A stretch of DNA of 61,363 nucleotides, taken from NCBI RefSeq assembly GCF_003334785.1, contig NZ_QOWV01000020.1. One strand, 5' to 3'. The notes beneath the pieces are model-generated. The model made no database searches and was not told the DNA's origin. It was given only the letters and a program-made list of their open reading frames with translations. Source of the stretch: Escherichia coli. GTDB lineage: Bacteria > Pseudomonadota > Gammaproteobacteria > Enterobacterales > Enterobacteriaceae. Position 1 is the first letter of the stretch. Each line of letters begins with the position of its first letter. The translations under genes were made by a program, and so were the position numbers. Below, one piece after another: positions 4,177 to 6,088 of the stretch.

Positions 4177-4460
4177 TTATTTATTGGTGAGAACTACGTT
4201 CCATGGCAGGAGTTCATCAATACGGTTGGAAGGTTATTCCGGCAGTACGCTCAGGATATGGCGCAGATACGCTTCCGGATCAATGTCGTTCAGAAGGCAA
4301 GTGCCGATAAGCCCATACAACAGTGCACTGCGCTCGCCGCCGAAGAACATAAAGTTTTTATTTCCGAGACAGATGGCACAAAGGGCTTTTTCCGCGGCAT
4401 TATGTCTGCCTCCGCCTGACCGTCAACACTGTAATAACAGAGTGCGCCCCACTGATTCAG
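4177..4460 (-). mobile_element. IS66-family transposase C-terminal remnant (degenerate, frameshifted)
   Basis: Minus-strand translation gives ...NAAEKALCAICLGNKNFMFFGGERSALLYGLIGTCLLNDIDPEAYLRHILSVLPE*, then in another frame PSNRIDELLPWNVVLTNK*, resembling the conserved C-terminal block of IS66-family transposases. No long intact ORF; further debris probably extends towards about 5.8 kb. Confidence 0.5.
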
Positions 4461-6088
4461 TACACAGCTGAACCATTCTCCCAGTCTGGATTTTTGGATA
4501 GCGTGGCATTTTTCTCCACCATGCATGCAGTGAGTCCAGTAACAGTTTGCTCTTCTTCTGCCTGACCACAAGATGTGCTGGACTGGTAAACGATGGGGAT
4601 ACCTGCTTACGCGAGAGCAATAAGTGGCTGGCCACAATTCTCGGTACAAAACTCTGCTGAATAGCAGCGATTTTCCCAGCGTGGTGCGTCGTTTGCATTT
4701 TACTGGTTCTAAGTTAACAATTATCTGTTCACTAATGACTACTCTAAAAACTTGTATCAGGACTATCACTTATTTAAGTGATATTGGTTGTCTGGAGATT
4801 CAGGGGGCCAGTCTATAAACTTTTTACAAAAGGATGAATGCAGAAGGTTACTCTAATGGCCAGAGTGATGACAATGATGGTCAGACGTTGACCTGCAGAA
4901 ACTGCATTTTAATTGGTCTATAAAGTCTGCAAGAGGAATCAGGGTCAGATCAGTGAGTCTTATCGCGGCCCGAAGCTATGACTGAAAGAAGGCTGGATAC
5001 AGAATTGCAACAATTTGGCAATGTCAGAACACAGAAGCTTTGCAAGCAGGTGAAAGGTTATGTCTAGCAAAAGGAGTATATCAGAATACATCTACTGATG
5101 TACAAAACACAACAATAGCTTCATGATATATAAATACGTGATGACGAGTGGTACTCCGCATGGTTATTTAACTTCTCAGCACCACTAATGATCCTGAGCA
5201 ACTTCGTATTTGGGCCATTGCCATGGAGTAGAAAGCTGTGTCTGAGAATGCAGAATTTGAGAAAAGAATTCGCTTTCTTGGAGAGCTTCTGAAAATGGCA
5301 CGCTAACAACGTTTTGTTAAAAAATGTGAATCACTTGCCGGGGCTGCATTTTCTATTCGAGGAGAATGTTGACGTAGATATTACAGAAATCTCAGCGCAT
5401 CAGGATAAACTGCTACCTTAGGTCAACCACCAAAAGAAAATACAATACGTCCAGTTTGTATGCCTTTAATAACACATCTTTTAAATGTTGAAGAATTATC
5501 CCGCCTGCTGAAGAACGTTGCTCTGAGTGTGATAAACCTTTTTATTCTTGATGATGTCAGCGAGAAGATGGAATATATCCCCGACTGGGTCGTGGTTACC
5601 CGGTTAAACATCTGGTGGCGCTAATAAATCTGGCAAGTCACATTCTGTTGAATGCTGTGACAGTGCCTTACCGAGAGAGCGAAATTGTGGTGTTCTAGTG
5701 CATAGTCGCCACCATTCCGGATAATTCTATTGCGTTGTTTTACAAGTTCTTTTACAGCGCAGATCTGTCGCTGACGTTGAATCAATAGCCTGGATTTCAG
5801 AACACAATGCCCGTTTGCTGGTTGGTCCGGCAGTAGCATTAATTCATTATCTGAATGAAATGTGTCAATCCACAGAAACCGCTGTCAATGACACATTTTG
5901 TCGGACGTTAACACGAGAAAGTCTGGCTATTCCGTAATGCCATCTTATTTCGTAATGGATTGAGAATGCTGGATTTTTAATTATATTACGCGCAGTATTA
6001 ATCGCGTAAATGTTTTGCGGTCAGCAACGGTGGGGGATCCATTGTTCTGTTCAATGAATACCATCATACATTTGAATCAGGAGTCGGT

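What the first reader, a model, noticed from the sequence alone, without database searches (positions are those of the whole stretch)
4177..5900. IS66-family transposase debris upstream of cobU
Minus-strand fragments reproduce the conserved IS66 transposase C-terminal block but are split by frameshifts and stops, and no ORF over about 160 codons survives in 4.1-5.9 kb. From memory of the K-12 map, this position next to cobU holds a cryptic prophage with an IS5 copy in K-12; here it is occupied by different, eroded mobile DNA.
Basis: partly seen in the sequence, partly recalled or inferred. Interest (0 to 1): 0.4.

Follow-up and report, generated by a model that had tools for sequence, protein, structure and literature searches.

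The report
Dead insertion-sequence scrap heap beside cobU
The 1.8 kb upstream of cobU is a non-functional patchwork of four broken insertion-sequence fragments plus the tail of a lost cobalamin gene; it is ordinary, already annotated in public E. coli genomes, and mostly shared with K-12.

Summary
The core observation holds. Window 4147-4573 (minus strand) is the right end of an IS66-family element: an intact terminal GTAAGCG repeat plus the last 137 codons of the transposase. It is 83% nt and about 60% aa identical to IS682/ISEc23, and is broken by frameshifts and a TAA stop. No ORF in the interval exceeds 159 codons.

That fragment is only a quarter of the interval. The rest is:
- an IS2-like left end (4578-4815, minus);
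- 226 unassigned bases;
- a second, unrelated IS66-family relic on the plus strand (5042-5602, ISEc8-like; end of tnpB plus tnpC codons 1-151);
- an internal IS4-family fragment (5594-5785);
- the last 47 codons of a CbiG-N-terminal-like ORF (5794-5937).

The DNA is not "different" from K-12. Positions 4814-7000 match K-12 at 99.2-99.7%, and K-12's IS5 sits at the CTAG at 5695-5698, which is unoccupied here. Only 4147-4815 differs.

NCBI's automatic annotation pipeline (PGAP) already marks these pseudogenes in RefSeq. Of 5,426 complete E. coli genomes, 3,604 carry the cobU-proximal piece uninterrupted and 774 carry the whole arrangement.

Verdict: a known hotspot for IS insertion and deletion. 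Already known, low interest.

The parts
4147..4573 (-). Right end of an IS66-family element (IS682/ISEc23-like). It comprises the terminal inverted repeat starting GTAAGCG at 4147 and the last 137 codons of tnpC (4180-4572), which carry at least three frame changes, a 12-nt deletion and an in-frame TAA.
   Evidence: tblastn against TnpC residues 401-537, E 2e-41. blastn 83% identity, E about 1e-134. The end alignment shows all copies diverging left of GTAAGCG. NCBIfam NF033517 matches profile positions 331-385 of 387, E 4.5e-8. PGAP annotates an 'IS66 family transposase' pseudogene at the equivalent of 4234-4572.
4578..4815 (-). Left end of an IS2-like (IS3-family) element. The terminal repeat is intact and ends ...GGGGGCCAGTCTA at 4815. 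About 50 decayed codons of orfA follow, with a 33-nt deletion relative to IS2.
   Evidence: blastn to IS2 gives 83% over 181 nt, E 2e-50. Alignment A1 shows the shared terminus. The left limit of 4578 comes from homology to a longer copy in strain Z1323CEC0002.
4816..5041 (.). 226 bp of unassigned sequence. It is orthologous (99.7%) to DNA lying upstream of the yoeA (TonB-dependent receptor) pseudogene in K-12.
   Evidence: K-12 homology begins at 4814. No IS66 homology lies left of 5042, even in sensitive blastn. NCBIfam gave no hit on any of the three plus-strand frames.
5042..5602 (+). Relic of a second, unrelated IS66-family element (ISEc8-like). It holds the last ~45 nt of tnpB, the spacer, and tnpC codons 1-151, which contain several in-frame stops.
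   Evidence: blastn 70.5% over 580 nt, E 4e-91. tblastn 47% aa over 152 residues, E 2e-25. About 300 plasmid IS66 copies match only this span.
5594..5785 (+). Internal fragment of an IS4-family transposase gene with one in-frame stop and no element ends.
   Evidence: tblastn gives 70% aa identity over all 64 residues to plasmid IS4-family transposases, E 2e-21. NCBIfam NF033592 matches profile positions 135-198 of 332, E 2e-4. PGAP annotates an 'IS4 family transposase' pseudogene.
5695..5698 (.). CTAG tetranucleotide that is the target site of the IS5 copy next to cobU in K-12. It is unoccupied in this window.
   Evidence: K-12 aligns to window 4814-5698 and to 5695-7000, with 1195 bp inserted between the two segments and a 4-bp overlap. 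The inserted DNA is annotated as IS5.
5794..5937 (+). Last 47 codons of a 136-aa ORF that resembles the N-terminal domain of CbiG. PGAP calls it 'cobalamin biosynthesis protein, missing N-terminus'. It marks the right boundary of the mobile debris.
   Evidence: The full-length ORF (P0005) matches NF004463, cobalt-precorrin-5A hydrolase, profile positions 1-123 of 351, E 2.8e-16. L010 is identical to the window from 5793 rightwards and different to the left.
6089..6634 (+). cobU, intact. This is the first functional gene to the right of the debris.
   Evidence: 181-aa ORF, annotated cobU in all matching genomes.

Best explanation
The interval is a non-functional scrap heap at a recombination hotspot of the E. 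coli chromosome: the yeeX/tmaR-cobU gap, where the pdu-cob region once lay.

Shown: from left to right it contains
- the right end of an IS682/ISEc23-like IS66 element;
- the left end of an IS2-like element;
- 226 bp of unassigned DNA;
- the tnpB-tnpC junction of an older ISEc8-like IS66 element;
- an internal piece of an IS4-family transposase gene;
- the 3' tail of a small CbiG-N-like ORF that precedes cobU.

None of the pieces has two ends or an open transposase frame, so none can move.

Inferred history: successive IS insertions, each followed by deletions that removed part of the previous occupant. Several of these deletions are anchored exactly at an intact IS terminus: GTAAGCG at 4147 and ...CAGTCTA at 4815. 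That is the signature of IS-mediated adjacent deletion.

The cobU-proximal block (4814-5937) is old and is shared by about two thirds of E. coli, including K-12. The IS66'/IS2' block (4147-4815) and the adjoining sugar-kinase island are a lineage-specific replacement of what is CP4-44/yoeA DNA in K-12.
For: - Segment identities and boundaries.
- No ORF over 159 aa. No Rfam family at E<=1 other than one implausible match at E 0.86. Promoter-like and terminator-like sites occur no more often than in shuffled sequence.
- The pieces are already annotated as pseudogenes in RefSeq.
- K-12 shares 4814-7000 at 99.2-99.7%, with IS5 inserted at CTAG.
- Frequencies among 5,426 complete genomes: whole arrangement 774; IS66'/IS2' junction 1,496; IS2'/4816 junction 701; 5560-5830 uninterrupted 3,604.
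- The same IS2-like terminus is joined to window position 5753 in another lineage (L014).
- Other strains truncate the relic at other points, with IS10/ISVsa5 or IS1 alongside, or pile ISEc45, IS3 and IS30 copies into it.
- Alternative states of the locus exist without mobile DNA: pdu-pocR-riboswitch-ORF-cobU in 644 genomes, and a direct pduV'-'ORF join.
Against: - The order of events is inferred, not shown. No genome in hand holds a complete copy of any of the four elements at this site.
- The window's IS2-like fragment is only 89-90% identical to the one in K-12 and Z1323CEC0002, while the flanks are over 98% identical. The two fragments may therefore be independent insertions rather than one ancestral copy.
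- The 226 bp at 4816-5041 has no assignment.
- The 99-100% conservation of 4814-5937 across thousands of genomes could in principle reflect function rather than shared recent ancestry. This was not tested by substitution-rate analysis.
Confidence: 0.9

Rival explanations
1. One reading: one IS66-family element eroded in place across 4177-5900 on the minus strand, occupying the site with DNA unrelated to what K-12 has there.
For: A real IS66 C-terminal block lies on the minus strand at 4180-4572. A second IS66-like stretch lies at 5042-5602.
Against: - The two IS66 pieces are on opposite strands and belong to different lineages. One is 83% identical to IS682/ISEc23. The other is 70% identical to an ISEc8-like element and has no detectable nucleotide match to IS682.
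- They are separated by an IS2-like end and followed by an IS4-family fragment.
- K-12 carries 4814-5937 at 99.7% identity.
Confidence: 0.04
2. The debris has been co-opted. It supplies the promoter or another regulatory signal for cobUST, or encodes a small protein or RNA, which would explain its near-identity across thousands of genomes.
For: - 4814-5937 is 99-100% identical in 3,604 genomes.
- One plus-strand sigma-70-like site (10 of 12 matches) lies at 5960-5987, just upstream of cobU.
- PGAP sometimes calls a 54-aa hypothetical protein at 5460-5624.
Against: - The promoter-like site lies to the right of the debris, in the native cobU leader.
- The count of promoter-like sites equals the shuffled expectation (5 found against 4.4 +/- 2.2).
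- There is no Rfam match.
- The 54-aa ORF is simply the translation of the decayed tnpC relic.
- Many strains lack or truncate the interval while keeping cobUST intact.
Confidence: 0.05
3. The 4147-4573 fragment is one arm of a decayed composite transposon. Two inverted IS66 right ends bracket the CP4-44 remnants and the phosphotriesterase / DMT transporter / amidotransferase / PfkB-kinase island, and delivered that island to this site.
For: In L008, which is 100% identical to window 397-6100, a second IS66 right-end fragment lies beside yoeF. It is in the opposite orientation, and its GTAAGCG terminus also faces the island.
Against: - The two arms are only 88% identical.
- Both lack their outer parts, so no outer ends or target duplications can be checked.
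- The bracketed DNA includes CP4-44 remnants that are native to this site in K-12.
Confidence: 0.1

Closest known systems
IS682 / ISEc23 (IS66 family)
   Same: The terminal repeat GTAAGCGT...TATTGA.GCTTATTTATTGGTGAG and the last 137 codons of TnpC. Identity is 83% nt and 57-61% aa.
   Different: Only the last ~430 bp of a ~2.5-kb element remain. There is no tnpA, no tnpB, no DDE core and no left end, and the frame is broken. At 83% identity it is not a copy of either named element but a related, unnamed family member.
ISEc8-like IS66-family element of O157 genomes (the copy interrupted by IS682 near terW in strain Xuzhou21)
   Same: The tnpB-tnpC junction and TnpC residues 1-151, collinear at 70.5% nt and 47% aa.
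   Different: Much more diverged, with multiple stops. It is cut on both sides and lies on the opposite strand from the other IS66 piece.
IS2 (IS3 family)
   Same: The last ~60 bp, including the terminal repeat, are nearly identical to IS2, and the start of orfA is recognisable (83% over 181 nt).
   Different: Only 238 bp remain, with a 33-nt internal deletion. orfB is absent.
The K-12 cobU-proximal region (IS5 insH next to cobU, at the CP4-44 boundary)
   Same: Window 4814-7000 is the same DNA at 99.2-99.7% identity.
   Different: K-12 has IS5 at CTAG 5695-5698, and has yoeA::IS2, yeeP' and flu to the left. The window has an empty IS5 site, and has IS2'/IS66'/sugar-kinase island to the left.

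Membership tests
IS66 family (fragment 4147-4573) | Homology to the TnpC (DDE) transposase | tested here: met
   C-terminal residues 401-537 only. tblastn E 2e-41; NCBIfam NF033517 E 4.5e-8, below the curated cutoff because the match is partial.
IS66 family (fragment 4147-4573) | Terminal inverted repeat beginning GTAAGCG | tested here: met
   GTAAGCG at 4147. Three other copies align from exactly this base and diverge outside it.
IS66 family (fragment 4147-4573) | tnpA-tnpB-tnpC organisation with an open tnpC frame and two ends (a complete, mobile element) | tested here: not met
   No tnpA, tnpB or N-terminal 400 codons are contiguous with the fragment. The frame is broken by shifts and a stop. 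It is a remnant of a member, not a functional member.
IS66 family (fragment 4147-4573) | 8-bp target-site duplication | not testable with these tools
   The left end of the element is missing.
IS66 family (relic 5042-5602) | tnpB-tnpC junction and TnpC N-terminal region | tested here: met
   70.5% nt over 580 nt, E 4e-91; 47% aa over 152 residues, E 2e-25. Plasmid hits are annotated tnpB / IS66 transposase.
IS66 family (relic 5042-5602) | Terminal repeats and an intact transposase | tested here: not met
   Homology stops at 5042 and 5602. There are several in-frame stops.
IS3 family, IS2 group (4578-4815) | IS2-type terminal repeat and start of orfA | tested here: met
   83% over 181 nt, E 2e-50, with the terminal ~45 nt identical to IS2. 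At protein level orfA is barely detectable.
IS4 family (5594-5785) | Homology to an IS4-type DDE transposase | tested here: met
   70% aa over 64 residues to annotated IS4-family transposases, E 2e-21. NCBIfam NF033592 E 2e-4, far below the cutoff because only profile positions 135-198 of 332 are present.
CP4-44 cryptic prophage | CP4-type genes (yeeP, flu, yeeR-W, cbtA/cbeA) between yeeX and cobU | tested here: not met
   None are present in window 1-6100. The identical genome L008 keeps only cbtA', yeeW and a DUF957 fragment, about 6 kb to the left of the window start.
CbiP (cobyric acid synthase) remnant | Similarity of 5794-5937 to the CbiP C-terminus. This was my own first guess from the Salmonella gene order. 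| tested here: not met
   The full-length version of the ORF is 136 aa and matches the N-terminal third of CbiG (NF004463, E 2.8e-16), not CbiP.

The most novel reading that the evidence does not exclude
The 47-codon tail at 5794-5937 would be the scar of a real, riboswitch-controlled small gene. In 644 of 5,426 E. coli genomes a cobalamin riboswitch is followed directly by a 136-145-aa ORF resembling the CbiG N-terminal domain, and then by cobUST, with no cbiA-P genes. If that ORF is functional rather than a deletion relic of cbiG, most E. coli, including this strain and K-12, lost both it and the B12-riboswitch control of cobUST when an IS4-family element hit codon ~89 and the upstream side was then replaced by mobile DNA.
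Probability: 0.12. Interest if true: 0.35.

Novelty: already known. Interest (0 to 1): 0.1.

Why it matters
It matters little on its own. The pseudogene fragments are already flagged by NCBI's annotation pipeline in hundreds of RefSeq genomes, and the cobU-yeeX gap is a recognised insertion site for mobile elements (PMC3032704).

The useful results are corrective:
- The interval is a five-piece mosaic rather than one decayed IS66.
- Its cobU-proximal half is the same DNA as in K-12, with K-12's IS5 site empty here.
- The gene remnant abutting cobU is CbiG-N-like rather than the CbiP tail one would expect from the Salmonella gene order.

The junctions (4147, 4573/4578, 4815/4816, 5602, 5793) are clean lineage markers that could be used for typing or for reconstructing how the pdu-cob region was lost in E. 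coli.

Tried and rejected
1. By eye I thought 4816-5041 carried a TnpB '...G.F.WP' motif and would continue the ISEc8-like relic leftwards. Sensitive blastn (word 7, +1/-1), tblastn with word size 2, NCBIfam on all three frames, and a 'distant' search of 72,556 plasmids all stop at 5042. I rejected the idea and left the segment unassigned.

2. I expected 5794-5937 to be the CbiP C-terminus, from the Salmonella order cbiP-cobU. This is rejected: the full-length ORF matches the CbiG N-terminus. Pfam gave nothing.

3. I suspected that the 3' part of the 'IS4' fragment (...IPDNSIALFYKFF...) was really the diverged 5' end of the CbiG-like ORF (MKTIKPESIALFCLL...). This is rejected: all 64 residues align at 70% to plasmid IS4-family transposases, and the DNA-level similarity is at chance level.

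4. The search for homologous proteins with the IS4'/ORF-tail peptide returned only E. coli self-matches. These were still useful as handles to variant loci.

5. Rfam searched on 3900-6700 gave nothing credible.

6. The promoter/terminator scan gave counts no higher than in shuffled sequence.

7. A literature search for cobU+cbiP+IS5 found no open-access paper. The Lawrence and Roth papers on E. coli cobUST are known to me from memory only and were not read here.

Full report
**Context**

The window is E. coli chromosome. cobU (6089-6634), cobS, cobT and ldtA follow the interval. Megablast of 4040-6090 finds the whole stretch at 100% identity in many complete genomes. There NCBI's annotation pipeline (PGAP) already labels:
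- an 'IS66 family transposase' pseudogene (equivalent to window 4234-4572, minus strand);
- an 'IS4 family transposase' pseudogene (5597-5785, plus strand);
- a 'cobalamin biosynthesis protein, missing N-terminus' (5794-5937, plus strand), immediately before cobU.

**Check of the observation**

The minus-strand IS66 C-terminal block is real.
- tblastn with the IS682 and ISEc23 transposases aligns residues 401-537 of 537 to 4572-4180 (E 2e-41 and 4e-40).
- At the DNA level the match is 83% over about 450 nt.
- The conceptual translation needs at least three frame changes. It lacks four codons, and it carries TAA where the references have Trp (…SVLPE*PSNRIDELLPWNVVLTNK).
- An alignment of this end with ISEc23, IS682 and a second chromosomal fragment shows all four starting to agree exactly at GTAAGCG (window 4147). 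The right terminus of the element is therefore preserved.
- The largest ORF in 4.1-5.9 kb is 159 aa and crosses pseudogene frames.

However, the block occupies only 4147-4573.

**What else is in the interval**

1. *4578-4815, minus strand.* This is the left end of an IS2-like, IS3-family element. It is 83% identical to IS2 over 181 nt (E 2e-50). The terminal repeat is intact and ends …GGGGGCCAGTCTA at 4815. The start of orfA is decayed and carries a 33-nt deletion. The left limit of 4578 comes from a longer copy in strain Z1323CEC0002. Only about 4 nt separate it from the end of the IS66 homology.

2. *4816-5041.* I could not assign this segment. Nothing matches in NCBIfam, and every IS66 comparison stops at 5042.

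3. *5042-5602, plus strand.* This is a second IS66-family relic of a different lineage. It is collinear with the last ~45 nt of tnpB, the spacer, and codons 1-151 of tnpC of an ISEc8-like element (70.5% nt, E 4e-91; 47% aa, E 2e-25). It contains several in-frame stops. About 300 plasmid IS66 copies match this span and no more.

4. *5594-5785, plus strand.* This is an internal piece of an IS4-family transposase gene. It is 70% aa identical over all 64 residues to plasmid IS4-family transposases (E 2e-21). It maps to profile positions 135-198 of 332 in NCBIfam NF033592.

5. *5794-5937, plus strand.* This is the tail of a small ORF. Its full-length form (136 aa, P0005) matches the N-terminal third of cobalt-precorrin-5A hydrolase CbiG (NF004463, E 2.8e-16). 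It is not the CbiP tail I had expected from the Salmonella gene order.

**Relation to K-12**

K-12 aligns to window 4814-5698 (99.66%) and to 5695-7000 (99.16%). Exactly 1195 bp of IS5 lie between the two segments, with a 4-bp overlap, CTAG (5695-5698), which is the target duplication. The window therefore shows the unoccupied IS5 site inside the IS4-family fragment. Everything from 4814 to cobU is the same old debris that K-12 has.

To the left of 4814, K-12 has about 640 bp, then yoeA::IS2, then a 160-200-bp IS2-like fragment (89% identical to the window's), then yeeP', flu and the rest of CP4-44. The window instead has the IS2-like end, the IS66 end, and a four-gene island encoding a phosphotriesterase-related protein, a DMT transporter, a glutamine amidotransferase and a DeoR/PfkB kinase.

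In genome L008, which is 100% identical to window 397-6100, CP4-44 remnants (cbtA', yeeW, DUF957'), an ISL3 pseudogene and a ggt fragment lie further left. They are followed by yoeF (a pduV remnant) and tmaR/yeeX. The inference that the DNA here is 'different' holds only for 4147-4815.

**Population picture (5,426 complete E. coli genomes)**

| Feature | Genomes |
|---|---|
| Whole 4040-6090 arrangement | 774 |
| Island / IS66-terminus junction | 1,976 |
| IS66' / IS2' junction | 1,496 |
| IS2' / 4816 junction | 701 |
| ISEc8-relic / IS4' / ORF-tail block (5560-5830), uninterrupted | 3,604 |
| Any match to 5560-5830 | 4,035 |

Alternative states of the locus:
- 644 genomes have pdu(V…A)-pduF-pocR, then a cobalamin riboswitch (109 bits in L010), then the 136-145-aa ORF, then cobUST. 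They have no cbiA-P genes and no mobile DNA.
- Some genomes have pduV' joined directly to the ORF from about codon 30 (L011).
- One metagenomic pocR-type locus (L013) carries about 48 nt of the IS4 fragment inside the ORF.
- One lineage (L014, seen in at least 20 samples) has the same IS2-like terminus joined to window position 5753 instead of 4816.
- Other strains cut the relic at 5032 or 5101, with IS10/ISVsa5 or IS1 alongside, or stack ISEc45, IS3 and IS30 copies into the site.

**Interpretation**

Shown:
- Five remnants with sharp boundaries.
- Two boundaries coincide with intact IS termini (4147 and 4815).
- No piece has both ends or an open frame.
- There is no Rfam match, and promoter-like and terminator-like signals are no more frequent than in shuffled sequence.

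Inferred:
- The gap left by loss of the pdu-cob region became a sink for IS insertions.
- Each newcomer, or a deletion anchored at its end, removed part of the previous occupant.
- The ISEc8-like relic and the IS4 fragment came early, because they are shared by about two thirds of the species and are heavily mutated.
- The IS682-like and IS2-like ends came later, because they are lineage-restricted and less decayed.

The order of events cannot be proven from the data in hand. The 10% divergence between the window's IS2-like fragment and K-12's means they may be independent insertions.

**Comparison with known families, and novelty**

Every piece belongs to a well-described IS family, and each is a remnant rather than a functional member. 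The arrangement is present and annotated in hundreds of public genomes. It is therefore already known and of low interest.

The only mildly unexpected by-product lies mostly outside the interval. The ORF abutting cobU is CbiG-N-like, and in pdu-positive E. coli it sits directly behind a B12 riboswitch. Whether that ORF is a functional gene or a deletion relic of cbiG was not tested.

Noticed in passing
window 1-396 (minus strand), breakpoint at 396/397: The window starts inside what looks like a live IS66-family element. Positions 1-~408 are 99% identical to copies present up to 18 times per genome on chromosomes and plasmids, annotated 'IS66-like element accessory protein TnpA'. Its end (GTAACCGGCTCATTT… on the minus strand) interrupts the phosphotriesterase-related gene. 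L008 and strain 789 are otherwise identical but lack this insertion. It is not ISEc23 or IS682.
   Followed up: partly
window 393-4038: The four-gene island left of the debris is itself decaying. The phosphotriesterase-related gene is interrupted at 396. The DMT transporter is split by an internal stop (1031-1294 and 1388-1996). The DeoR/PfkB kinase is frameshifted by a 1-nt deletion at about 3654 relative to strain 789 (2825-3550 and 3595-4038). Only the glutamine amidotransferase (2053-2811) is intact.
   Followed up: partly
L010 5607-6411; L012 20229-21059; window 5794-5937: In 644 of 5,426 complete E. coli genomes, a cobalamin riboswitch (109 bits) lying after pocR is followed directly by a 136-145-aa ORF that resembles the CbiG N-terminal domain, and then by cobUST. 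There are no cbiA-P genes. PGAP names the ORF inconsistently, as 'hypothetical protein' or 'cobalamin biosynthesis protein'. Whether it is a functional gene or a double-deletion relic of cbiG is open.
   Followed up: partly
L010 1-6266 compared with window 5793-9000: Genome GCA_027276035.1 is 100% identical to the window from 5793 to 9000. Immediately to the left it switches to the pocR/pdu type, with pduC and pduF frameshifted. The recombination or replacement breakpoint therefore lies exactly at the IS4'/ORF-tail junction.
   Followed up: partly
L011 3710-4341: Strain MB30 has a clean join of a pduV remnant to the CbiG-N-like ORF (from about codon 30), with no mobile DNA at all between tmaR and cobU. 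This is a third, IS-free state of the locus.
   Followed up: no
L013 1782-2069: A metagenomic pocR-type locus carries about 48 nt identical to window 5745-5792 (the IS4-family fragment) between codons 25 and 90 of the CbiG-N-like ORF. This suggests that the IS4-family insertion into this ORF predates the loss of the pocR/pdu side.
   Followed up: no
L014 about 560-700: In a lineage seen in at least 20 sequencing samples, the same IS2-like terminus (…GGGGGCCAGTCTA) is joined to window position 5753 instead of 4816. This looks like a second, larger deletion anchored at the same IS end.
   Followed up: no
L008 12930-13103: A second IS66 right-end fragment, 88% identical to window 4143-4305, lies beside yoeF (the pduV remnant). 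It is in the opposite orientation, so both GTAAGCG termini face the CP4-44-remnant/sugar-kinase island.
   Followed up: no
L003 4578-4768 (K-12): K-12 has a 190-bp IS2-like fragment between yeeP' and yoeA' that is unannotated in this K-12 RefSeq record (NZ_CP010445.1). It is 89% identical to window 4600-4802, has a 12-bp deletion and lacks the last 13 bp of the terminal repeat.
   Followed up: partly
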